From positions 87,074 through 151,073 of the IMG/VR virus record IMGVR_UViG_2974725113_000001: 64,000 bases of DNA; one strand, given 5' to 3'. Positions within the stretch are counted from its first letter, which is position 1; the number at the start of each line of letters is the position of its first letter. Under the pieces are notes generated by a model. The model was given only the letters and a program-made list of their open reading frames with translations. It was not told where the DNA came from and did no database searches. The stretch comes from Oliverocinquevirus OLIVR5. Taxonomy: Duplodnaviria > Heunggongvirae > Uroviricota > Caudoviricetes. This document shows, one piece after another, positions 3,142 through 57,477 of this stretch. The translations under genes and the position numbers were made by a program.

Positions 3142-3677
3142 CACGATCTCCGAAGCTTGAAATGAAGGCAATGCTTTTCGCAGCAGATGCTCACGAGAAC
3201 CAGGTCCGGAAGTACACTGGCGAACCTTACATCCGTCATCCGATCGAGGTTACTTCTATCCTCTCGACGTATTTTCCAGATGACTCTATCATCCTGGCTG
3301 CTGCAGCTCTCCATGACGTTATCGAAGATTGTGGTGTGATTCGAGAAACACTCGAAGATGTTTTCGGCCACGAAGTTGCTCATCTCGTCGACGAGGTCTC
3401 TGACAAGTTCTCCGATCCTGTCCACGGCAATCGTGCAAAGAGGAAGGCTCTCGAAGCTCATCGCCTCTCACATTGCTCTATCCGAGCCCAGAACATCAAG
3501 CTCGCAGATTTCCTCTCGAATTTTCCTTCGATCCTTTTCCACGACGAGTCTTTCGCTAAGCTCTACGCTAAGGAAAAGAGATACCTCATTAACCTCATCG
3601 ATCCGAAGGTTAATCCTCTCCTTCTGACTCGCGTGAAGAATATGATCGAAGATGCAGAAAAGCGGTTTACAAACTAA
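3138..3677 (+). CDS. HD-domain (p)ppGpp hydrolase, SpoT/RelA N-terminal hydrolase-like (Mesh1-type small alarmone hydrolase)
   Basis: Matches the SpoT hydrolase domain: AADAHxxQxRKxxGEPYIxHPxEV, AAALHDVIEDCG, LVDEVSDK, RAKRK...EAHR, IKLADxLSN. The in-frame ATG at 3138 has RBS GAAGGTGA; the track start at 3108 is upstream. Confidence 0.7.
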   Translation: MTRSPKLEMKAMLFAADAHENQVRKYTGEPYIRHPIEVTSILSTYFPDDSIILAAAALHDVIEDCGVIRETLEDVFGHEVAHLVDEVSDKFSDPVHGNRAKRKALEAHRLSHCSIRAQNIKLADFLSNFPSILFHDESFAKLYAKEKRYLINLIDPKVNPLLLTRVKNMIEDAEKRFTN

Positions 3678-3694
3678 TCCTTCTGGTCTATAAA
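3666..3694 (+). promoter_or_regulatory. sigma70-like early promoter (TTTACA-N17-TATAAA)
   Basis: Near-consensus hexamers at 17-nt spacing, overlapping the stop of the hydrolase gene and upstream of 3726. Confidence 0.5.
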
Positions 3695-3725
3695 GAAATC
3701 CCAAGCATGAAACAAGGAATTCGTA

Positions 3726-4292
3726 ATGCATAACTACATCACCATCCGCAACAACTTCCTCCGTCACGTTGAAAAGAATGTTCGCGGAATTCCTTTTGAC
3801 CAGAAGGTTACTTACGTCAAGGAAAACTTCAATTCTCTCTTCGCGTCTTTCGAACAGAAGAGCTTCTTGAACTCCAACGCTGCAATCCTCCTCAAGCAGA
3901 AGACCGTTCTCGAATTCCGCACTCTCGAACGGAAGGTGACTGAAGACATCGCGAAGCATCAGGAACAGATCGACCTCACTCGACGCATGGATATCATTCG
4001 TGCATCCGATCGTGAAGACATCAAGAAGCGCGAAGATCGAATTGCGTACCTGAAGTTTAAGTACAATGCGAAGACCACCCAAGTTGATCGCGATTTCATT
4101 CCTGGAGAATTCTTCGACGAGAAGACCAGGTCGCTGAATATTTTCAAAAAGGATATTCACAATGCCGTAGAAACACGGTATAAAATAGATAAGATCGCCG
4201 ACAGCTTCTTCATTTATCCAGAAAAGGAAAAGATCGAAGAAGAGACGAATGAAATTGTCAATGTCGTTGAGTCCCGCTACTATCGAGCGTAA
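3726..4292 (+). CDS. hypothetical protein
   Basis: 188-aa ORF immediately upstream of the gp32-like gene; no motif recognised. Confidence 0.45.
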   Translation: MHNYITIRNNFLRHVEKNVRGIPFDQKVTYVKENFNSLFASFEQKSFLNSNAAILLKQKTVLEFRTLERKVTEDIAKHQEQIDLTRRMDIIRASDREDIKKREDRIAYLKFKYNAKTTQVDRDFIPGEFFDEKTRSLNIFKKDIHNAVETRYKIDKIADSFFIYPEKEKIEEETNEIVNVVESRYYRA

Positions 4293-4352
4293 TCGGTAGA
4301 ACACCAAAGAAACCCAAAACAGACTACCCCAGAAAAACCCAAGGAAATCCCA

Positions 4353-5312
4353 ATGTCTTTTGCAAGTCTCCGTGAACGCGCCAAGAATATCGAAGAAGTC
4401 CGTGATGAAGTCGCTCCTAACGAAGGTGAAGGTGGCGATCGTTATCTCCAGATTGGTATCGATAAGACCGGCGTAGCATATGTTCGTGGTCGTTTCATGC
4501 CAGCTCCCGACGGCGAGCGCTCCTCGATCGTCACGTCCGAACGTTTCAAGTTCCAGAATGACTCTGGCACCAAGGAATACTACGGACTCTCCCTCCGAAA
4601 TCTCCCCGATCCTGACAATCCTTCCAAGCGCCAGCTTGATCCTGTTCAGCCTTACCTCGATGCTCTCTGGAAGGCAGGCGACAAGGACCTCTATCGCAAG
4701 CGCAAGAAGAAGACTCCGACCTACGTCAACTTCTACGTCGAAGAAGACAAGGTCAACCCGGAAAACAACGGCAAGGTTTTCCTTTGGCGTATTCCGTACG
4801 AAATCCACGACATGGTCAAGGTTGCACTGAAGCCTGTCGAAGACAAGTACGATCCGTCGAAGACTCCGAAAGCTTTCAATCCGTTCGACCTATTCGGCGA
4901 AGCAGGTGGTCGTGACTTCATTATCCGCATCAAGGATAAGGATGGCAAGAACGACTACAGCGGTTCTCATTTCGCTGACAAGCCGAATGCTTTCCTCGAC
5001 GGTGACGAAGAAAAGATGGAAGCAGCCTGGAAGTCCTGCCACTCGCTCTTCCACTTCGTTGATCCGTCTCGTCACAAGACTCGTGAAGAACTGATCAAGA
5101 TGCTGATCGACGTTGTTGGTCCTCGCGACAAGTATCTCTCGGAAATCTATCCGGAAGAGTGCGAAGAATTCCTCTCCAAGGGTCGTGGCTCTAAGTCTGA
5201 AGAGAAATCTGAAGGCAAGCGTGAAGAACGCGAGGAAAAGAAGTCAGAACCGAAGAAGGAAGAAAAAGCTCCGAAGTCTTCAGCTGCCGAAGACCTCGAC
5301 ATCGACTTCTAA
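4353..5312 (+). CDS. 32: ssDNA-binding protein, T4 gp32-like
   Basis: Block YVNFYVEEDKVNPENNGKVFLWRIPYEIHDMVKVAL matches T4 gp32 [37 protein letters not shown]; a Cys/His cluster follows (WKSCHSLFHF); the C-terminal tail is acidic (DLDIDF); 319 aa. Confidence 0.75.
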   Translation: MSFASLRERAKNIEEVRDEVAPNEGEGGDRYLQIGIDKTGVAYVRGRFMPAPDGERSSIVTSERFKFQNDSGTKEYYGLSLRNLPDPDNPSKRQLDPVQPYLDALWKAGDKDLYRKRKKKTPTYVNFYVEEDKVNPENNGKVFLWRIPYEIHDMVKVALKPVEDKYDPSKTPKAFNPFDLFGEAGGRDFIIRIKDKDGKNDYSGSHFADKPNAFLDGDEEKMEAAWKSCHSLFHFVDPSRHKTREELIKMLIDVVGPRDKYLSEIYPEECEEFLSKGRGSKSEEKSEGKREEREEKKSEPKKEEKAPKSSAAEDLDIDF

Positions 5313-5364: not shown

Positions 5365-7293
5365 TTATGGCAGGACCATCATGCCGTTCACACCCATGTA
5401 ATCACGAGCGGAAACAGGATCACGGTCACGGACAGAAAGTCCGGAATCATAGTAAGCATTGTTCTCTACCTTTGTGGTCTTCACGGAGTTGACATTCGTA
5501 TTCGAAGCCTTGTCAAGAGCGGCAGCAAGAGAATCGTTAATGGCTGAAAACGCGGCTTCAGCATTAGCATTCTGAGATGCAGCATTCTCTCGAATCCTCG
5601 AAGAAGTTTCGATCGAAGACATTCGCTGGCCGATTCGTTCAGCGTACGAAGGACCTTCGGCGAACGGATTGAAATCAGAGAACGAAATCTCCTCATACAT
5701 TACAGAACCGAGGTTCTTCGCATAGTCGAAAGACTCCTTCAACTTGTTCTTCATCCCAGTGATGATGCTCGTGATAGTATCGGGAATTTCTTCCGTGAGC
5801 ATATTCATGAACGAATCCCAAGTCTCGGTGATCTTCGTCTCAACAATCCCGTAAGCGAGACCGCTCAACTTCTCCACATTGGACCACCATTTCTCGATAG
5901 GCTTAGCGATGTTCTCATCGTACGCACCGACGATAGAATCTACAGTGCCCATGAAAGCGGCTTCCACCCTCAATGCTGCGGCCGATGTCCAATTACTGAG
6001 AGCTCTTTCCTTCTCTGCAAACCATTGGACGACAGAGTTCGGAACGAGTGCAAGAAGAGCACGGTCCATGGAGCTCGAGACTTCTCCAGCCCAGTTACCG
6101 AATTTCTCGAAGAAGCTGGCATCAGCAAGAGCCATTTCCTTTTTGAAGCTTTCTTCCTTCTGTTGGATTTTCTCCAACTGCACTTTGCCATCGGCGATGA
6201 TCTTTTCGTTCGTGTTGATTTTCCTTCGAAGGATATCAGCAGTGGCGCTATTTCCAGACAATTCAGCCTGAGTCAACTGAACACGAAGTTCGGAGATTGC
6301 CAGGATGGATTTCTCAATAGCCTCGTTGATAGAAGAGGATTTCTTCTTCATATCGTCGATACGACCTTGGAGACGATCCTTGTCCGTGCCGAAGACAGAC
6401 TCAGCCAATTGATAAGTTCCGTCTACCATCGTGTCCAGAGCGCTCTGGATATAATCGCCGAATAGATAATCAACAGCGAGGGCTGCTGCTCCCAGGGCTG
6501 CTCCCACGGTGCCACCAGCAATGATCCCTGGAATTCCGAGAGGAAGACCAAGTGCTGCACCAGCTGCAGTCCATCGGCCGAGAGCATGGAACTTCGACAT
6601 GATATCGTTTTCCACACCTACGAGAAGAGCTTTGATGCCACCAGCAATTTGATTATCTCCGGACTCCGAAGCGTTCAGTGCACCCTTCGTGTAATCGGCG
6701 ATCGAGTATACGAGACCTTCGATAGCCGTGCCGATGATCGATACGAGAGCGATGCCTTTCAGAGCGATAGGAATGGCAGCCAGGATTCGAGTCTTCAGAC
6801 CCAAGAACATCGCCTTGAAGATTTCATCGGCAGACTTCTTAGGATTGACTTCTTCGACAGGATCAGAGGTCGGTTCTTGGAACTTCTCTTTTTCCTCTTT
6901 CTCCTGCTGGCGATTCTCCTTCTCGGTGTCCTTGAAGAATTGCTCGATCTTCTCAAGAGCGTCGACGGTCTCAGAAAAACCTTGCTCCGTCTTCTCCGTC
7001 AGGATTTCGAGCTGATCCTTCCTGCGAGGAGTATTCGTGGCCTTATGGAGAGCGTCACCAATCTTCCGTTGAGCAGCAGCGAATGCTTTCCCAACAGAGT
7101 TGATTTTCGCTGCGTCATAAAGAGTCATGAAGGGCTCTTTGAGCTGATCTAAGACCTGCTCACTTTTGCCCATCATGCTTTTCGCTACGGAGTCGAATTG
7201 GTCAGTGAGTTTCCTCACAGCCTTGTCGACTGTTTCCTGAACAACGCCGGCCACTTCCTTCTCGAAATTTGCGATCTTAGGAAGTGCTGCCAT
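5365..7293 (-). CDS. tape-measure-like protein (T4 gp29-like size), glycine-zipper hydrophobic core
   Basis: 642 aa; coiled-coil-prone N-terminal region; central Ala/Gly-rich hydrophobic segments (GAALGLPLGIPGIIAGGTVGAALGAAALAV); sits in a minus-strand tail/baseplate cluster beside a tube-family gene. Confidence 0.35.
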   Translation of the reverse strand: MAALPKIANFEKEVAGVVQETVDKAVRKLTDQFDSVAKSMMGKSEQVLDQLKEPFMTLYDAAKINSVGKAFAAAQRKIGDALHKATNTPRRKDQLEILTEKTEQGFSETVDALEKIEQFFKDTEKENRQQEKEEKEKFQEPTSDPVEEVNPKKSADEIFKAMFLGLKTRILAAIPIALKGIALVSIIGTAIEGLVYSIADYTKGALNASESGDNQIAGGIKALLVGVENDIMSKFHALGRWTAAGAALGLPLGIPGIIAGGTVGAALGAAALAVDYLFGDYIQSALDTMVDGTYQLAESVFGTDKDRLQGRIDDMKKKSSSINEAIEKSILAISELRVQLTQAELSGNSATADILRRKINTNEKIIADGKVQLEKIQQKEESFKKEMALADASFFEKFGNWAGEVSSSMDRALLALVPNSVVQWFAEKERALSNWTSAAALRVEAAFMGTVDSIVGAYDENIAKPIEKWWSNVEKLSGLAYGIVETKITETWDSFMNMLTEEIPDTITSIITGMKNKLKESFDYAKNLGSVMYEEISFSDFNPFAEGPSYAERIGQRMSSIETSSRIRENAASQNANAEAAFSAINDSLAAALDKASNTNVNSVKTTKVENNAYYDSGLSVRDRDPVSARDYMGVNGMMVLP

Positions 7294-7294
7294 A

Positions 7295-7660
7295 TTAACC
7301 TACCTCTCCGTCTTTTCCGGACTTCAGTTTGTTTGCGAGTTCCTTGATTTGGATGAACTCGTCGAATACCTTCTTCCGATCCATGCCGAGTTCTTCAACT
7401 GTCGATCCGCCGAAGTAAGCTGCAATAATACCACCGCAGAACAGAGAAATCTGAACGAAGAGAGCGGTGTACATTTCAACGTCTCGAGCTTCCACCTTGA
7501 TCAGGAGAACGGTTCCGACGAAGAAGTAGAAGAACAGGGTCAGGAAAGCGATCCATCGACGGTAAGTCCATTTCCTGTTCTGATACGTGACGAATTCCTC
7601 AGGTGAGATGCGTCCGTCATGGTTGGTATCGATAGCGTCGATTTCCCTTTCGCTAGCCAT
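7295..7660 (-). CDS. EF-hand-containing small membrane protein
   Basis: 121 aa; canonical EF-hand loop DTNHDGRISPEEF near the N-terminus followed by two predicted TM helices; its stop is 1 nt from the start of the tape-measure-like gene. Confidence 0.5.
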   Translation of the reverse strand: MASEREIDAIDTNHDGRISPEEFVTYQNRKWTYRRWIAFLTLFFYFFVGTVLLIKVEARDVEMYTALFVQISLFCGGIIAAYFGGSTVEELGMDRKKVFDEFIQIKELANKLKSGKDGEVG

Positions 7661-7831
7661 GTAGTTTCCTTTGCTGGTTCTTCTTTTCTACAAACTCTCG
7701 AGCTATTGCGAGGTAGGCTTCCCGTTCCAACGGTGGCAGGCTTTCAATCTCATCGATCGTCCAGTTCATATCCGGAAGGAGCTTGAAAGCCATGTTGGTT
7801 TTAATGTGGACGGCTAGGGAAGAATAAGCCG

Positions 7832-8533
7832 TCAGGAGGAGAAAAAATCCTTGAGGTCCTTGACCACAACTTCATTATCTTCACCGCATTCGATGCACTT
7901 GAACTTGTTCTCGTATGTGATCTTCGGATAGTCGAGCACGAATGCAAGAGCACGAGTGTAGACGTTCTTGAGAGACATGAAGAAGGCTTCAAACTCTTCG
8001 AGCGTGAACTCTTCATCGATCAGGTCTTCACCGACGTAAATCTCTTCGACGCAAGCCATGATAAGACGGATTTCAGAACTGTCATCATCAGGAGTTCCGC
8101 TGAACATATCCTTCGATTTCGGAGTCCTGAGGACGATCGTCACAGGAGAACCTTCATGATGAGAGTCGAGTACCAATTCGTCCGTAAACTTCTCAGGGAT
8201 GTTCAGCTGATGAGTGCCGATCTTGACAGGATGAGCTTTTCCGCACGACTGGCATGCGATAGAAAACTCGATAACGTTCGAGTGGGACACAGAACGGATT
8301 TCTGTGAATAGATACTGAACAGCACCGATTGGAAGCTCCCTGGCGTCAACGTCGGTACAAGAAGTGACGATATCGAGGACTGCGTTGATAAGAGAGTCAC
8401 GATCCTTCTTCAATCTGGCTGTCAGGAGGACTTTCTCCTCTCGACCCGTGAACTGCTTCAGTTTGATTTTCTTGCCTTCGAAATCGATCGTAGAGACCGA
8501 GACGTCGGACTTCTTAGATGGTAGCTTTGCCAT
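7832..8533 (-). CDS. hypothetical protein with two CxxC pairs (zinc-ribbon-like)
   Basis: 233 aa; CQSCGKAH and CIECGEDNE motifs; lies in the tail/baseplate cluster. Confidence 0.45.
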   Translation of the reverse strand: MAKLPSKKSDVSVSTIDFEGKKIKLKQFTGREEKVLLTARLKKDRDSLINAVLDIVTSCTDVDARELPIGAVQYLFTEIRSVSHSNVIEFSIACQSCGKAHPVKIGTHQLNIPEKFTDELVLDSHHEGSPVTIVLRTPKSKDMFSGTPDDDSSEIRLIMACVEEIYVGEDLIDEEFTLEEFEAFFMSLKNVYTRALAFVLDYPKITYENKFKCIECGEDNEVVVKDLKDFFSS

Positions 8534-8553: not shown

Positions 8554-9075
8554 TTACACGAATGTGGTATAACGAACAGGGACATTAATCGTAGCGATCT
8601 GATTTCCTTCTTCGTATCCGAGAGTCACGGGTCCAACGGACTCTGGAAATGCTTTGATCAGAATGATCTCTTGGATGATGTTTCCTTCACCAGCCATTCG
8701 ACCCATAGGATAGAGTCTGAACTGACCTACGAAATCATCCTCATATCCAACGAGCTTCGATTCGTGATCGACTGCCAGACGAGTCCAATCATTGAAGAGC
8801 TCTCGAACGATCAGGTTCTTTCCGATATAGAATTTGAAATCTGTCGTCGTGACGTTGGATGTATGAGGTCGATAAATCGAGTTCGACCTTTCGTATTCTT
8901 TGACCTCGAGAGAGAAGCCAGGAAGTGATGCGGAAGAACACGTAAGACCAATCAGCCGCATGTGTTCTTGATACTCTTCCTGGAGACCTTGAGGCAAATC
9001 GATCTCTACGCGATATCGGTTTGGTCTGAAGAAACCTCCGGTATTCTCGATCATGTACATCAGCTCATCATGCAT
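8554..9075 (-). CDS. tail-tube family protein (gp19/gp48/gp54-like)
   Basis: FFRPNRYRVEI, CSSASLPG, FNDWTRL and the C-terminal block FPESVGPVTLGYEEGNQIATINV align with T4 gp19 FARPNLFQVEI, CKATALPAG, FDDWTV, WPTNVGELQLDWDSNNEIQTF. The chosen start ATG at 9075 leaves a 2-nt gap to the upstream gene; the track start at 9171 would overlap it. Confidence 0.55.
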   Translation of the reverse strand: MHDELMYMIENTGGFFRPNRYRVEIDLPQGLQEEYQEHMRLIGLTCSSASLPGFSLEVKEYERSNSIYRPHTSNVTTTDFKFYIGKNLIVRELFNDWTRLAVDHESKLVGYEDDFVGQFRLYPMGRMAGEGNIIQEIILIKAFPESVGPVTLGYEEGNQIATINVPVRYTTFV

Positions 9076-9077
9076 CT

Positions 9078-9713
9078 TTAATCTCCAAATCTCTTTCTTG
9101 CTTCTTTCCAGATCGACTCTTGAGATTTGCCGACGAAGAGCTGTGACGGGAAAACTACCGCCTTGTCCCAATCTTGTGGTTGGATACGGACGACCTTTCC
9201 TGCCACATGACTCGGGATATAGCTCTTGATCGCGAAGCCGAGAGGCTTGTAAGCTGCGATCTCCTTCACCATCCCGTAGGTGATTTTCATTTGCGTGTCA
9301 TGACGCATAGTGTTCGAACCAACCGTCGAAATGATCTTACCGAGGATTCGAGATCGGATGACGGGGTTCAAGTAATGGAGGTTCAAAGCCAAAAGGTTTC
9401 CATTCTTCTGGACATCCAGGAAAAGGATCAGAGGGAACCGGTCGTAGTAAGGCAGAGTCTCAGCATGCTTCGGATGATAGCTGAATGTGAAAATCTGACC
9501 AGGTAGATAATCAGATGCTGTCCTCTGTCCTTTCGTCATTAACGAAATGTTGGCACGTCCTGTGTCCACGAACTTAGCACTGTTCTTCTCAGCGAAGTAC
9601 TTTACCGATTCGCGAATACGCTTGTTGATGTTTCCCTGGTTGGCCTTCTCAAGGTCTTTAGCCATTTGAGAAAATCTCTTCTGTGCTTCAGACTCTTCAT
9701 TCTTTCTGGCCAT
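9078..9713 (-). CDS. hypothetical protein (tail/baseplate cluster)
   Basis: 211-aa ORF; no motif recognised. Confidence 0.4.
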   Translation of the reverse strand: MARKNEESEAQKRFSQMAKDLEKANQGNINKRIRESVKYFAEKNSAKFVDTGRANISLMTKGQRTASDYLPGQIFTFSYHPKHAETLPYYDRFPLILFLDVQKNGNLLALNLHYLNPVIRSRILGKIISTVGSNTMRHDTQMKITYGMVKEIAAYKPLGFAIKSYIPSHVAGKVVRIQPQDWDKAVVFPSQLFVGKSQESIWKEARKRFGD

Positions 9714-10816: not shown

Positions 10817-11125
10817 TCACTTCGAAGAAGGTTTATTCTCGGAAGAAGAAGGTTCACCTTGAGGGGGAATGCTCTTCTGAAGCTCTCGGACAGCTCGTGC
10901 ATTAGCAGCACATTCCGAAATCCGTTTGTCCATCTTCACGATGAGCTTTGCTGTCTCCTTGTCTTTCAAAGAATCCGGCTTAGGATATTCGCTCTTTTTC
11001 AACTCCGTACACGTGAGATACCGTTCAGGAATCTTCTGATGGACAGGTTGAAGGACGATTTCCTTCTGGACAGATGCACAGGAAGTCAGAGCCAGGAGAG
11101 CGATCATAAATAAGAAGGTCTTCAT
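10817..11125 (-). CDS. o-spanin (outer-membrane lipoprotein spanin subunit)
   Basis: N-terminal lipoprotein signal MKTFLFMIALLALTS-C (lipobox LTSC); Pro-rich C-terminus with additional Cys; 4-nt overlap with the upstream i-spanin gene. Confidence 0.55.
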   Translation of the reverse strand: MKTFLFMIALLALTSCASVQKEIVLQPVHQKIPERYLTCTELKKSEYPKPDSLKDKETAKLIVKMDKRISECAANARAVRELQKSIPPQGEPSSSENKPSSK

Positions 11126-11469
11126 TGTGCTTTCTCCTGGAGTTTACGAACAGTATTCTTCAAGACGTCGGACGAATCCTGATCTTCGAACTCGCTGAAC
11201 GAATCTAGGATTTCATCGACTTTCGTCTGGTCGATGGCATTCTGGATGGCCAAGTTCTTGTCGACCTCTTCCTGGGCCTCGATCCAATCGAACAGACCTT
11301 CGGCAGAATTCTTCCAAAGATCACGAGAAATCGTGAGTCCTTTCACTTCGTTCTGAAGCAGAGCGATCTCGGTCGTCTTGGAGTCGAGCGTCATTTTCGT
11401 CGCGATCCCGCCGATGACCAGGGCGGCCATGAGAATAACGACCACCCATGTAAGCAATTTCGTAGTCAT
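11122..11469 (-). CDS. i-spanin (inner-membrane spanin subunit)
   Basis: N-terminal TM helix (LTWVVVILMAALVIGGIA) followed by predicted coiled-coil; directly precedes and overlaps the lipoprotein gene. Confidence 0.55.
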   Translation of the reverse strand: MTTKLLTWVVVILMAALVIGGIATKMTLDSKTTEIALLQNEVKGLTISRDLWKNSAEGLFDWIEAQEEVDKNLAIQNAIDQTKVDEILDSFSEFEDQDSSDVLKNTVRKLQEKAQ

Positions 11470-56437: not shown

Positions 56438-56641
56438 GTGAATCATCAACGGAACTTTTCCATTATCGCTCTTGTAGCGGTCGTGGTATTCTTCTTCGGA
56501 TATCTTGGTCCGGCACTCATTTCTGCAAAGAACACGATCCTCAACCTCGGCGGTGTATTCCTCGGAGTCCTGCTGATCTACGTGATCGTGACTCTGGCAT
56601 ACAACGTCATTCAGAAACTCGTCAAAGGAAAGAACTCTTGA
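56438..56641 (+). CDS. small two-TM membrane protein (holin-like or NfeD-like partner)
   Basis: In-frame GTG start (the track ORF begins with TTG at 56390; no ATG in frame); two hydrophobic helices (FSIIALVAVVVFFFGYLGPALI and LGGVFLGVLLIYVIVTLAY); basic C-terminus KLVKGKNS; stop overlaps the start of the next gene (TTGA). Confidence 0.4.
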   Translation: MNHQRNFSIIALVAVVVFFFGYLGPALISAKNTILNLGGVFLGVLLIYVIVTLAYNVIQKLVKGKNS

Positions 56642-57477
56642 AGCTATCTCGCATTATCTCCGTCGGTCTCCTGGCCGCTCTCGTCGCATCCTGTGCTCGT
56701 GTCGAAGCCGGTAACGTCGGCATCAAGGTCAAGCTCCTTGGTGACGAAAAAGGTGTAAGCAACACCGAAGTCCTCGGTCCTGGTCGATACTGGGAAGGTT
56801 GGAACGAAAAGATTTACACGTTCCCGACTTTCACCCAGAACAAAATCTGGGAAGGTGAAAAGGGTTCCGAGAAGAAGGCATTCGAATTCCAGACCAACCA
56901 GGGCATGGTCGTCTCCGTCGATATGGGTCTCTCGTACTACGTCCAGGCGGAATCTGCTGCAACTGTTTTCCAGAAGTATCGACGCGGTATCGACGAAATT
57001 ACCGACGTCTATCTGAAGAACATGATCCGCGACTCTCTTGTTGCCGAAGGTTCGAAGATCACCGTTGAAGACGCTTATGGTGCTGGCAAGGAAGCTCTCC
57101 TCGAACGTGTCCAGGAACGTGTCCGCAAGCAGGTCGAAGATATCGGCATCAAGATCGAGCGAATTTACTGGATTGGTCAGTTCCAGCTTCCTCAGGAAGT
57201 TATCGAGAAGATCAACGCGAAAATCCAGGCAGGTCAGATGACTGAGCAGCGTCTTCAGGAAGTCGAACAATCTCGAGCTGAAGCTCAGAAGCTGGAAGCT
57301 GAAGCTCTCGGTCTGAAGAACGCAGCCATTCTCAAGGCTGAAGGCGAAGCGGAAGCTAACCGACTCATCACAGAGTCGATCTCTGAAGAACTGATTCGGT
57401 ACAAGCAGATCGACACCTGGGATGGTGTACTTCCGAAGGTTACCGGTGGTGCAACTCCGATGATTAAGATCGATTGA
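56638..57477 (+). CDS. SPFH/band-7 (prohibitin/stomatin-like) lipoprotein
   Basis: TTG start with RBS AAAGGAAAG 6 nt upstream; lipoprotein signal MKLSRIISVGLLAALVAS-C; SPFH-domain body with C-terminal Ala/Glu-rich coiled coil (RLQEVEQSRAEAQKLEAEALGLKNAAILKAEGEAEANRL); 279 aa. Confidence 0.65.
   Translation: MKLSRIISVGLLAALVASCARVEAGNVGIKVKLLGDEKGVSNTEVLGPGRYWEGWNEKIYTFPTFTQNKIWEGEKGSEKKAFEFQTNQGMVVSVDMGLSYYVQAESAATVFQKYRRGIDEITDVYLKNMIRDSLVAEGSKITVEDAYGAGKEALLERVQERVRKQVEDIGIKIERIYWIGQFQLPQEVIEKINAKIQAGQMTEQRLQEVEQSRAEAQKLEAEALGLKNAAILKAEGEAEANRLITESISEELIRYKQIDTWDGVLPKVTGGATPMIKID

What the first reader, a model, noticed from the sequence alone, without database searches (positions are those of the whole stretch)
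7295..7660. EF-hand calcium-binding loop on a small phage membrane protein cotranscribed with the tape-measure-like gene
DTNHDGRISPEEF fits the 12-residue EF-hand loop (D-x-[DN]-x-D-G-x-I-x-x-x-E) at every liganding position. Two TM helices follow. EF-hand proteins are uncommon in phages. One placed upstream of a tail tape-measure or hub gene could couple Ca2+ or Mg2+ sensing to tail assembly or to membrane events at infection.
Basis: seen in the sequence. Interest (0 to 1): 0.5.

Follow-up and report, generated by a model that had tools for sequence, protein, structure and literature searches.

The report
EF-hand loop on holin-like membrane protein
The small phage gene does encode a two-helix membrane protein with a textbook calcium-binding loop, but its relatives in other phages sit beside cell-lysis genes, so it is more likely a possibly calcium-sensitive lysis-timing (holin-like) protein than a tail-assembly factor.

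Summary
The window is the last 64 kb of Agrobacterium phage OLIVR5, a T4-like phage of the family Pootjesviridae. ORF 7295-7660(-) encodes 121 aa with one canonical EF-hand loop (DTNHDGRISPEE) and two transmembrane helices. It is packed tightly between a short gp51 gene and a 642-aa, all-helical, glycine-rich protein in the slot that holds the tape measure in other T4-like phages.

The interpretation needs revising. Within Pootjesviridae the protein is always present at this position. The loop survives only in the OLIVR5 group and Ochrobactrum phage ORM_20, and it is absent or degenerate in all other orthologues.

A remotely homologous family (hhalign 82.6%, E 1e-5) keeps the loop almost invariantly (119 of 120 relatives) and has at least 8000 metagenomic clusters. 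It occupies the same gp51/tape-measure slot in pelagiphage HTVC008M and Methylophilales phage Melnitz. In Roseobacter and Limnohabitans phages and in several marine contigs it lies inside lysis cassettes, next to spanins, endolysins or a GTA-type holin.

Best reading (about 0.5): an N-in/C-in, class-II-like holin or holin partner whose cytoplasmic N-terminus binds Ca2+/Mg2+. A role in tail assembly is not supported. The protein matches no described holin family, and nothing here has been tested experimentally.

The parts
7295..7660 (-). Gene for the 121-aa EF-hand-loop, two-TM membrane protein (OLIVR5 gp243, PHROG 28953)
7595..7630 (-). 12-residue EF-hand loop, residues 11-22 (DTNHDGRISPEE). 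With F23 it forms the PS00018 match at 7592-7630.
7499..7555 (-). TM helix 1 (residues about 36-54). It is preceded by the conserved basic stretch RKWTYRR, which marks the cytoplasmic side.
7406..7480 (-). TM helix 2 (residues about 61-85), less hydrophobic. It carries the conserved Y64, Q70 and the small-residue face G77/A81/G85, and ends in the family motif YFGGS(S/T).EE.
7307..7378 (-). C-terminal charged amphipathic helix (residues 95-118)
7302..7309 (-). Shine-Dalgarno (GGAGAGGT) of the downstream 642-aa gene, embedded in the last codons. This explains the conserved C-terminal 'NEVG' of the family.
7653..7793 (-). Short gp51-like baseplate hub assembly catalyst (46 aa). Its stop overlaps the start of the small gene by 8 nt.
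7832..8533 (-). gp26 baseplate hub subunit (Pfam T4_baseplate, E 7e-47)
5365..7293 (-). 642-aa probable tail tape measure (T4 gp29 analogue). It is predicted all-alpha, has Gly-rich hydrophobic segments at 170-188 and 254-272, and occupies the slot held by annotated tape measures in Cr30 and HTVC008M.
10817..11469 (-). o-spanin (10817-11125, lipobox LTSC) and i-spanin (11122-11469, N-terminal TM). These are the nearest recognisable lysis genes, on the same strand 3.2 kb upstream.

Best explanation
The gene encodes a small inner-membrane protein with class-II-holin-like architecture: two TM helices, both ends in the cytoplasm, and a charged C-terminal tail. It most likely acts in host lysis, either as the phage's holin or as a holin partner or antiholin.

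Proposed course of events:
1. It is made late, together with the baseplate-hub and tape-measure genes, and accumulates in the membrane (shown: architecture and gene coupling).
2. It oligomerises through TM2, which carries a polar and small-residue face (inferred).
3. At a set time it permeabilises or depolarises the membrane, so that endolysin and spanins can act (inferred from gene context in relatives).

Its cytoplasmic N-terminus carries a single EF-hand loop whose exiting helix runs straight into TM1. A lone EF-hand normally needs a partner. Metal binding would therefore favour or stabilise dimers, so a rise in cytoplasmic Ca2+ (for example through the first membrane lesions) or Mg2+ occupancy could tune the timing or sharpness of triggering (inferred, untested).

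The loop appears to be ancestral in a wider superfamily and decayed in most Pootjesviridae. It would then be a regulatory accessory and not the core of the function.
For: Architecture: 121 aa; TM helices at 36-54 and 61-85; net positive N-flank (RKWTYRR); charged C-tail.

Link to a loop-bearing family (Melnitz, HTVC008M, CRP-207/345/701/810, DC31):
- hhalign of the two family alignments gives 82.6% probability, E 9.7e-6, 75 colinear columns from the loop to YFGGSSYE.
- HMMER cross-hits run both ways: family-B HMM to OLIVR5 E 0.0047, family-A HMM to DC31 E 5.4e-5, against about 2800 decoy ORFs.
- Both families hit phrog_27150 weakly.
- HTVC008M and Melnitz carry the gene in the same gp26-gp51-X-tape-measure slot.

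Lysis context of that family:
- CRP-810 and CRP-701: immediately upstream of, and overlapping, a GTA_holin_3TM gene (E 2.5e-20) followed by the endolysin.
- CRP-345: X, then a spanin, then the endolysin. X is the only multi-TM protein in the cassette other than the spanin itself.
- DC31: X, then an i-spanin-like gene, then an L-Ala-D-Glu peptidase.
- Metagenomic contig L028: endolysin, i-spanin, o-spanin, X.
- T4-like marine contigs L084 and L092: gp41, i-spanin, o-spanin, (196-aa gene in L092), X. In L084 X overlaps the o-spanin; in L092 it overlaps the 196-aa gene.
- 8 of 80 IMG/VR loci have a spanin or endolysin within about 3 kb.

Weak holin-family similarities in two different members: phrog_5871 'holin/anti-holin' E 1.7e-3, and Pfam Phage_holin_3_6 E 0.05.

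The loop is under selection: 119 of 120 relatives keep ligand positions 1, 3, 5, 6, 8 and 12 while positions 7 and 9-11 vary. ORM_20 shows the same pattern.

Precedent, from my own knowledge and not tested here: the T4 holin gene t lies at the end of the late tail-fibre gene cluster, so a holin inside a late tail operon is not unprecedented.
Against: - In OLIVR5 the gene is not next to an endolysin. The annotated amidase is about 73 kb away and the spanins are 3.2 kb upstream.
- There is no significant match to any described holin family in Pfam, PHROGs or NCBIfam.
- The link between the two families is remote homology only.
- In CRP-810 and CRP-701 a recognised holin sits next door, so the protein may be an accessory and not the hole-former.
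- The commonest context in T4-like phages is the hub/tape-measure slot (36 of 80 loci plus all Pootjesviridae), with translational coupling on both sides.
- OLIVR5 has another holin candidate, gp029, with 2-3 TM helices two genes from the amidase.
- Most Pootjesviridae lack the loop.
- No experimental data exist for any member.
Confidence: 0.5

Rival explanations
1. Membrane partner of the tape measure or hub. The protein anchors or shields the hydrophobic Gly-rich segments of the tape measure at the inner membrane during hub assembly (a functional stand-in for T4 gp28 or a membrane-bound assembly chaperone). Alternatively it is ejected with the tape measure to help form the DNA channel. The EF-hand would couple this to divalent cations.
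For: - The position between gp51 and the tape-measure candidate is invariant in every Pootjesviridae genome examined and in a metagenomic relative. It recurs in HTVC008M, Melnitz and 36 of 80 IMG/VR loci.
- There is translational coupling on both sides.
- Caulobacter phage Cr30 has an unrelated 82-aa 2-TM protein in the same slot.
- The tape-measure candidate has TM-like segments.
- In T4, gene 28 occupies the position just upstream of gene 29 and overlaps it.
Against: - Close relatives (over 70% identical to the Melnitz protein) sit elsewhere in T4-like genomes, after the spanins or after uvsX-gp41. Homologues also occur in small non-T4 phages inside lysis cassettes, far from any tape measure.
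- Cyanophage P-HM2, phage C48C1, Stenotrophomonas phage Marzo and Desulfovibrio phage 7757 have gp26-gp51-tape measure with no small gene, so hub assembly does not need it.
- No similarity to gp28.
- Known tape-measure chaperones are soluble proteins (my own knowledge).
Confidence: 0.2
2. Superinfection-exclusion or immunity protein. It is a small inner-membrane protein that blocks tape-measure-mediated DNA entry of related phages, analogous to T4 Imm or to HK97 gp15 (the latter encoded just upstream of its tape-measure gene). Cytoplasmic Ca2+ influx at superinfection could act as a signal.
For: Small 2-TM inner-membrane protein encoded directly upstream of the probable tape measure. Its position is variable among marine relatives, as expected for an accessory gene. 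The precedents come from my own knowledge and were not tested here.
Against: - It is universally conserved at a fixed locus in Pootjesviridae and is better conserved (23-48% identity) than the tape-measure candidate (21-37%), unlike typical accessory ('moron') genes.
- It is embedded in a late structural operon, whereas exclusion is normally an early function.
- The repeated adjacency to spanins and endolysins in relatives is not explained.
Confidence: 0.1
3. The loop in OLIVR5 is a relic or a purely structural feature and not a Ca2+ sensor. The membrane protein works the same way with or without it, and in vivo the loop is empty or constitutively Mg2+-bound.
For: - The loop is lost in 6 of 8 Pootjesviridae lineages and in 11 metagenomic homologues while the rest of the protein is conserved.
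- ORM_20 has only two residues before the loop, so there is no entering helix.
- There is only one EF-hand per chain.
- The predicted cytoplasmic location has sub-micromolar free Ca2+ and millimolar Mg2+ (established bacterial physiology).
- AlphaFold is unconfident in this region, with pLDDT below 50 at residues 11-14.
Against: - All liganding positions are canonical, and they are conserved between OLIVR5 and ORM_20 at 47% overall identity.
- The sister family shows the substitution pattern of a selected metal site in 119 of 120 members.
- Pfam EF-hand_5 is above its gathering score.
Confidence: 0.25

Closest known systems
Class II holins (for example phage 21 S21-68 pinholin; two TMDs, N-in/C-in)
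   Same: Small size, two TM helices, both termini cytoplasmic, charged C-terminal tail, a less hydrophobic second helix with a small-residue face, late expression. Relatives lie in holin-endolysin-spanin cassettes.
   Different: No detectable sequence relationship. TM1 is strongly hydrophobic and not SAR-like. No dual-start motif. It carries an N-terminal EF-hand loop, which I have not seen reported for any holin (literature searches). In OLIVR5 it lies in the hub/tape-measure operon and not beside the endolysin.
T4 holin T with antiholins RI/RIII
   Same: The phage is T4-like, with lysis genes scattered around the genome. In T4 the holin gene follows late tail-fibre genes, and lysis timing is modulated through a sensory domain on a membrane protein.
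   Different: T has one TMD and a large periplasmic domain. There is no homology, and the sensor here would be cytoplasmic and metal-binding.
Canonical EF-hand proteins (calmodulin, sarcoplasmic Ca-binding protein, KChIP) and bacterial DxDxDG-type loops
   Same: 12-residue loop with D1, N3, D5, G6, I8, E12. An S-P-E-E cap starts the exiting helix. Hydrophobic residues sit at -1 and -4 of a short entering helix.
   Different: There is a single motif instead of the usual pair. The entering helix is at most 7-8 residues, and absent in ORM_20. The exiting helix continues into a transmembrane helix. Binding is untested.
EF-loop 2-TM family of Pelagibacter phage HTVC008M, Methylophilales phage Melnitz, Roseobacter phages CRP-207/345/701/810 and Limnohabitans phage DC31 (all annotated 'hypothetical')
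   Same: Same order of elements (EF loop, charged helix, basic patch, TM1, short loop, TM2 ending in (A/Y)FFG..Y). Same gp51/tape-measure slot in the two T4-like isolates. Profile-profile E 1e-5.
   Different: About 10 residues more between loop and TM1. The C-terminus ends right after TM2 with KKK instead of an amphipathic helix. The loop is nearly invariant there but mostly lost in Pootjesviridae.
T4 gp28 (distal hub subunit) and HK97 gp15 (inner-membrane exclusion protein encoded upstream of the tape measure)
   Same: Small gene immediately upstream of the tape-measure gene.
   Different: gp28 is not a membrane protein and shows no similarity. gp15 is a prophage-expressed accessory ('moron') gene. 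Neither is known to carry an EF-hand.

Membership tests
EF-hand (PROSITE PS00018 / Pfam EF-hand clan) | 12-residue loop with oxygen ligands at positions 1, 3, 5 and 12, Gly at 6 and a hydrophobic residue at 8 | tested here: met
   DTNHDGRISPEE(F). It is the only PS00018 match in the window. The nearest PDB sequences are true EF-hands.
EF-hand (PROSITE PS00018 / Pfam EF-hand clan) | Score above a curated profile threshold | tested here: met
   EF-hand_5 scores 28.1 bits against 25.9. EF-hand_1, _6, _7 and _8 are below their cut-offs.
EF-hand (PROSITE PS00018 / Pfam EF-hand clan) | Helix-loop-helix: entering and exiting helices flank the loop | tested here: inconclusive
   The exiting helix is predicted (residues 20-55, continuous with TM1). 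The entering helix covers only residues 4-8 at low pLDDT. ORM_20 has no room for one.
EF-hand (PROSITE PS00018 / Pfam EF-hand clan) | Motifs occur in pairs that form one domain | tested here: not met
   One motif per chain. Pairing would require homodimerisation, which these tools cannot test.
EF-hand (PROSITE PS00018 / Pfam EF-hand clan) | Measurable Ca2+ (or Mg2+) binding | not testable with these tools
   Needs ITC, 45Ca overlay or Tb3+ luminescence on the peptide 1-33.
Holin (class II type) | Small protein with two TMDs, N-in/C-in, and a hydrophilic charged C-terminus | tested here: met
   Hydropathy, AlphaFold helices and flank charges. Topology is inferred from the positive-inside rule only.
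Holin (class II type) | Gene lies in a lysis cassette next to endolysin and/or spanins | tested here: inconclusive
   Not met in OLIVR5: spanins are 3.2 kb away and the amidase about 73 kb away. Met for remote homologues in CRP-345/701/810, DC31, L028, L084, L092 and L109.
Holin (class II type) | Sequence membership of a described holin family | tested here: not met
   Only weak hits: phrog_5871 E 1.7e-3 in 1 of 16 members, and Phage_holin_3_6 E 0.05. Nothing in NCBIfam.
Holin (class II type) | Lethal membrane permeabilisation on expression; complements a holin-null phage | not testable with these tools
   Experiment required.
Tape-measure chaperone / hub assembly factor (lambda G/GT type, T4 gp28) | Encoded directly upstream of the tape-measure gene | tested here: met
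   The tape-measure identity itself is inferred.
Tape-measure chaperone / hub assembly factor (lambda G/GT type, T4 gp28) | Homology to gp28 (PF11110) or to a known chaperone family | tested here: not met
   No Pfam hit at E<=1 and no BLAST alignment to T4 gp28.
Tape-measure chaperone / hub assembly factor (lambda G/GT type, T4 gp28) | Co-occurs with the tape measure wherever homologues are found | tested here: not met
   Homologues lie in lysis cassettes or after uvsX-gp41, away from any tape measure. Several T4-like lineages lack the gene altogether.
PHROG 28953 (unnamed Pootjesviridae 2-TM family) | Significant full-length profile match | tested here: met
   E 1.2e-22 for the window protein. 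All 16 aligned members match.

The most novel reading that the evidence does not exclude
A previously unrecognised and very abundant superfamily of phage lysis proteins in which a single cytoplasmic EF-hand is fused to a two-helix holin-like membrane hairpin. Ca2+ entering through the first membrane lesions (or at superinfection) would bind the EF-hand, drive pairing of N-termini, and so trigger or inhibit hole formation. That would be a metal-gated holin, giving lysis timing a chemical input beyond proton-motive force. OLIVR5 and ORM_20 would be the soil and rhizosphere representatives. HTVC008M-like pelagiphages and Roseobacter phages would be the marine ones.
Probability: 0.25. Interest if true: 0.75.

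Novelty: new variant of a known kind. Interest (0 to 1): 0.55.

Why it matters
What sets the moment of holin triggering is a long-standing question in phage biology. The known inputs are holin concentration, membrane potential and, in T4, a periplasmic antiholin. A holin-like family with a built-in calcium-binding loop would point to a new input and can be tested directly with point mutants and chelators.

The loop-bearing relatives are among the commonest small genes of SAR11, OM43 and Roseobacter phages (at least 8000 clusters). Assigning them a lysis role would fill a gap in the annotation of marine phage genomes, where holins are mostly unidentified. It could also bear on burst timing in seawater, which contains about 10 mM Ca2+.

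For OLIVR5, a biocontrol candidate used in Ca-rich hydroponic solution, it suggests that lysis timing might depend on divalent cations.

More modestly, the work assigns the 642-aa neighbour as the probable tape measure of Pootjesviridae. It also shows that the gp26-gp51-tape-measure gene order is shared across non-enterobacterial T4-like phages.

Tried and rejected
1. Direct homology of the 642-aa protein to T4 gp29. BLASTP, hhalign with a 7-sequence profile, Pfam T4_Tape_measure and a PDB sequence search all found nothing. hhalign to the HTVC008M and Cr30 tape measures was also insignificant. The tape-measure call therefore rests on synteny and architecture.
2. Similarity of the small protein to T4 gp28: none.
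3. The word-indexed protein search found only the protein itself. With the family alignment it found only 5 proteins. The exhaustive HMMER search was needed.
4. The search for related loci with the broad alignment failed for lack of a conserved stretch. A narrower alignment gave only 3 loci.
5. A Foldseek search of the AlphaFold model against viral structures gave no match with E<=0.001. A helical hairpin is uninformative.
6. T4-type late promoter TATAAATA: one site in the window, at chance level and not near the gene. The sigma-70 and terminator scans were at background.
7. The conserved C-terminal 'NEVG' was considered as a protein motif and rejected in favour of the embedded Shine-Dalgarno of the next gene.
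8. The Cr30 slot protein was tested as a homologue and rejected.
9. Literature: no paper on Pootjesviridae, OLIVR5, phiM9 or Atu_ph04 discusses this gene or reports virion proteomics. No paper links holins with EF-hands. EF-hand mentions in the phage lysis literature appear to come from endolysin papers; I did not open them.
10. The glycine-zipper-like face in TM2 matched a strict pattern in only 10 of 18 and 101 of 127 sequences, so I treat it as a soft feature.
Full report
IDENTITY OF THE WINDOW. The 121-aa product of ORF 7295..7660(-) is 100% identical to a 'hypothetical protein' of Agrobacterium phages OLIVR5 and OLIVR6, and 99.2% identical in Rhizobium phages LG08, IC12 and IG49. Window coordinate = record coordinate minus 87073, so the window is the last 64 kb of NC_055841 (family Pootjesviridae, genus Heverleevirus). 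OLIVR5 is a virulent T4-like myovirus isolated on rhizogenic Agrobacterium (PMC10132094).

THE OBSERVATION. The ORF reads MASEREIDAIDTNHDGRISPEEFVTYQNRKWTYRRWIAFLTLFFYFFVGTVLLIKVEARDVEMYTALFVQISLFCGGIIAAYFGGSTVEELGMDRKKVFDEFIQIKELANKLKSGKDGEVG.
- Residues 11-23 are the only PS00018 match in six-frame translation of the window.
- Pfam EF-hand_5 is above its gathering score (28.1 against 25.9 bits). EF-hand_1 is just below.
- The best PDB sequence matches are authentic EF-hands. An exhaustive HMMER search retrieves about 90 multi-EF-hand proteins through residues 1-38 alone.
- Composition-preserving shuffles give 0.16 matches per 26.6 k aa, about 0.3 per phage proteome. The motif alone would therefore not be compelling. 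Its conservation, described below, is.
- Two hydrophobic helices follow at 36-54 and 61-85. AlphaFold, with a 13-sequence alignment and mean pLDDT 72, gives helices at 4-8, 20-55, 62-92 and 95-118. The loop itself is at low confidence because most aligned sequences lack it.
- The flank before TM1 (EEFVTYQNRKWTYRR) is net +2 and the inter-helix loop is net -1. The positive-inside rule therefore places both termini, and the EF loop, in the cytoplasm. This is an inference.

NEIGHBOURHOOD. On the minus strand the order is gp2 (9078-9713), a gp54-like tube initiator (8554-9075), gp26 (7832-8533; Pfam T4_baseplate, E 7e-47), a 46-aa gp51 (7653-7793), the small gene, and a 642-aa ORF (5365-7293). The convergent gp32 gene follows. 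The small gene overlaps the gp51 stop by 8 nt. Its own stop lies 1 nt before the next ATG, and its last codons contain that gene's Shine-Dalgarno, GGAGAGGT. This fits an operon, but transcription itself was not shown. Promoter and terminator scans were uninformative.

IS THE 642-aa PROTEIN A TAPE MEASURE? It has no detectable similarity to T4 gp29, to Pfam PF25671 or to any PDB chain. The case for a tape measure is indirect:
- In T4 the order is 26, 51, 27, 28, 29.
- In other non-enterobacterial T4-like phages the gene after the short gp51 is a large Gly-rich protein. It is annotated as a tape measure in Cr30 and HTVC008M, and the Cr30 and P-HM2 proteins hit tape-measure PHROGs.
- The OLIVR5 protein is predicted almost entirely alpha-helical. 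This is a single-sequence model and is confident only for residues 300-390.
- It has two TM-like Gly-rich segments and a set of invariant glycines across seven orthologues.
- No other tape measure is annotated in the genome.
- At 1.5 A per residue (textbook value), 642 aa would span about 96 nm. Relatives with 603-620-aa orthologues have tails of 80-125 nm.
I accept it as the probable tape measure, by inference.

CONSERVATION OF THE SMALL PROTEIN AND OF THE LOOP. Every Pootjesviridae genome examined, plus a metagenomic relative, has a homologue in exactly this slot: ORM_20, phiM9, P10VF, RL38J1, Y68, N34 and Atu_ph04.
- The exhaustive search adds 11 full-length metagenomic homologues. All 16 sequences in alignment A2, which includes ten of those 11, match PHROG 28953, a family of unknown function.
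- The conserved core is (E/D)F..YQ..KW..RRR, TM1 with Y45, NY.G...Q, TM2, YFGGSSYEE, an amphipathic helix and a variable charged tail.
- The EF loop is present only in the OLIVR5 group and in ORM_20 (DLNHDGEIDMEE). It is identical at positions 1, 3, 4, 5, 6, 8, 11 and 12 and differs at 2, 7, 9 and 10, which is the pattern expected for a selected metal site.
- In ORM_20 the loop starts two residues after the initiator Met, so there is no entering helix.
- In the other lineages the N-terminus begins about where the loop would begin and retains only scattered loop-like residues and the Glu-Phe of the exiting helix.
Whatever the conserved function is, it does not need the loop.

A SISTER FAMILY THAT KEEPS THE LOOP. 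I examined the gp26-gp51 slot in other T4-like lineages.
- Methylophilales phage Melnitz and Pelagibacter phage HTVC008M carry a 109-110-aa protein between gp51 and the tape measure. It has DTNGDGKVS(D/A)EE, a charged helix, two TM helices and a C-terminal AAFFG.QA(Y/M)T.KK.
- tblastn finds homologues in Roseobacter phages CRP-207, -345, -701 and -810 and in Limnohabitans phage DC31. All five whose sequences were extracted carry a loop, and CRP-345 and CRP-701 show one in their printed N-termini.
- A profile search saturates at 8000 clusters. Of the 120 best, 119 keep D-x-[DNS]-x-[DNSG]-G-x-[ILVMC]-x-x-x-[ED], with variation concentrated at positions 7 and 9-11. One of them reads DTNGDGRVSPEE, close to the OLIVR5 DTNHDGRISPEE.
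- Profile-profile comparison of the two families gives 82.6% probability and E 9.7e-6 over 75 colinear columns.
- HMMER cross-hits are reciprocal: family-B HMM to OLIVR5, E 0.0047, aligned from the loop to the FGG motif; family-A HMM to DC31, E 5.4e-5. Family-A members crowd the top of a list of about 2800 decoy ORFs.
I take this as probable remote homology. With this outgroup, the loop is more parsimoniously ancestral and lost in most Pootjesviridae. No rooted tree was made.

WHAT THE CONTEXTS SAY.
- CRP-810 and CRP-701: the gene overlaps the start of a GTA_holin_3TM gene (Pfam E 2.5e-20), which is followed by the endolysin.
- CRP-345: the gene is followed by a lipobox-plus-TM spanin and an M15-type endolysin. 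The three upstream genes have no TM helix.
- DC31: the gene is followed by an i-spanin-like protein and an L-Ala-D-Glu peptidase.
- A 52.8-kb marine contig: endolysin, i-spanin, o-spanin, X. A related contig has the same set with insertions.
- Among 80 IMG/VR loci of close relatives, 36 are in the gp26/gp51 slot, 9 follow uvsX-gp41, 8 have spanins or an endolysin within about 3 kb, and 27 have no neighbour recognisable with my small reference set.
- At gene level, T4-like contig L084 reads gp41, i-spanin, o-spanin, X, with X overlapping the o-spanin stop. L092 and L109 show variants of the same cassette.
The same protein (over 70% identical) therefore moves between the hub/tape-measure slot and a spanin-adjacent slot in related phages. 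In phages with no T4-type hub it is a lysis-cassette gene. That is hard to reconcile with a dedicated tape-measure or hub function and is what one expects of a holin, antiholin or other lysis-control membrane protein. In addition, cyanophage P-HM2, phage C48C1, phage Marzo and a Desulfovibrio phage have gp26-gp51-tape measure with no intervening gene.

MECHANISM PROPOSED. Shown: a small protein with two TM helices, a basic cytoplasmic patch, a charged tail, a canonical single EF loop whose exiting helix is continuous with TM1, late-operon placement, and lysis-gene neighbours in relatives. Inferred:
1. It accumulates in the inner membrane late in infection.
2. It oligomerises. TM2 is the less hydrophobic helix and carries conserved Y64, Q70 and the small residues G77/A81/G85 (a soft feature).
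3. It permeabilises or depolarises the membrane, or regulates a partner that does so. The endolysin (amidase gp031 is a candidate) and the spanins at 10817-11469 then finish lysis.
4. A lone EF-hand normally needs a partner, so metal binding would favour N-terminal dimerisation. With sub-micromolar resting Ca2+ and a steep inward gradient, the first leaks could feed back on triggering. Alternatively, Mg2+ simply holds the domain together.
Step 4 is speculation that fits the anatomy.

WEAKNESSES.
- No significant match to any described holin family in Pfam, PHROGs or NCBIfam. There are only weak hits in single members.
- The OLIVR5 gene is not beside an endolysin.
- OLIVR5 has another candidate holin, gp029, near the amidase, although that protein is restricted to the OLIVR5 group and ORM_20.
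- Where a recognised holin is adjacent (CRP-701 and CRP-810), the protein may be an accessory.
- The dominant T4-like context is still the tape-measure slot, with tight coupling.
- There are no experiments or virion proteomes for any member.
I therefore give the lysis reading about 0.5, the tape-measure or hub partner about 0.2, and superinfection exclusion about 0.1. On the separate question of the loop, I give about 0.25 that it is functionally inert in OLIVR5.

NOVELTY AND VERDICT. The EF-hand call itself is already in UniRef as an automatic label. I found no published description of the following points:
- The loop belongs to a wider, very abundant family of EF-loop plus 2-TM phage proteins.
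- That family is associated with lysis cassettes.
- Pootjesviridae orthologues have mostly lost the loop.
If the protein is a holin or antiholin, it is a new variant of a known kind. The tail-assembly interpretation is not supported. Interest is moderate (0.55). It would be higher if Ca2+-dependent lysis control were demonstrated.

Noticed in passing
window 3468-5312: The RefSeq annotation of OLIVR5 appears to mis-call gp32. The full 319-aa ORF at 4353-5312(+) carries the Pfam gp32 domain. The record annotates only its last 166 aa (4812-5312), plus a 446-aa antisense ORF (3468-4808, -) that is also named 'ssDNA binding protein'.
   Followed up: partly
window 7295-7309 and the orthologous loci L003-L008, L010: The near-invariant C-terminal 'NEVG' of the small-protein family coincides with GAGGT(A/G)GG, the ribosome-binding site of the downstream tape-measure gene. 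ORM_20 lacks the tail and has a separate AAGGAG. This looks like dual coding and not a protein motif.
   Followed up: yes
window 7653-7793; L009 3480-4229: gp51 is only 46-60 aa in Pootjesviridae, Cr30 and Marzo (about 30-47 aa in cyanophages and pelagiphages) against 249 aa in T4. T4 gp51 itself matches Pfam T4_baseplate (PF12322), the family assigned to gp26.
   Followed up: no
NC_055841 19621-21361 (outside the window; L013): OLIVR5 gp029 (176 aa, 2-3 C-terminal TM helices, acidic tail) lies two genes downstream of the amidase gp031. It is an alternative holin candidate. Its TM part is found only in the OLIVR5 group and ORM_20.
   Followed up: partly
L016 4866-5114 (Caulobacter phage Cr30): An unrelated 82-aa two-TM protein occupies the same gp51/tape-measure slot in Cr30. 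Small membrane proteins may have been recruited to this position independently.
   Followed up: partly
L020 7371-7687 and L022 6047-7321: In Melnitz and HTVC008M an adenylate/guanylate cyclase gene lies convergent just downstream of the tape-measure gene.
   Followed up: no
L017 4875-6707 (cyanophage P-HM2); L019 4885-6363: The protein in the tape-measure slot of cyanomyophages is annotated 'peptidase'. In P-HM2 it combines a VanY-type peptidase domain with tape-measure-like PHROG hits, which suggests a tape measure with a built-in cell-wall hydrolase.
   Followed up: no
window 56638-57477: A 279-aa SPFH/QmcA-like 'lipoprotein' (membrane quality-control family) is encoded by the phage.
   Followed up: no
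window 5365-5480 and orthologues (alignment A4): The C-termini of the tape-measure candidates share an Asn-rich stretch followed by D(P/x)(T/x)SR...G..(V/I).P. This loosely recalls the Asn/Thr-rich C-terminus of T4 gp29, but there is no statistical support.
   Followed up: partly
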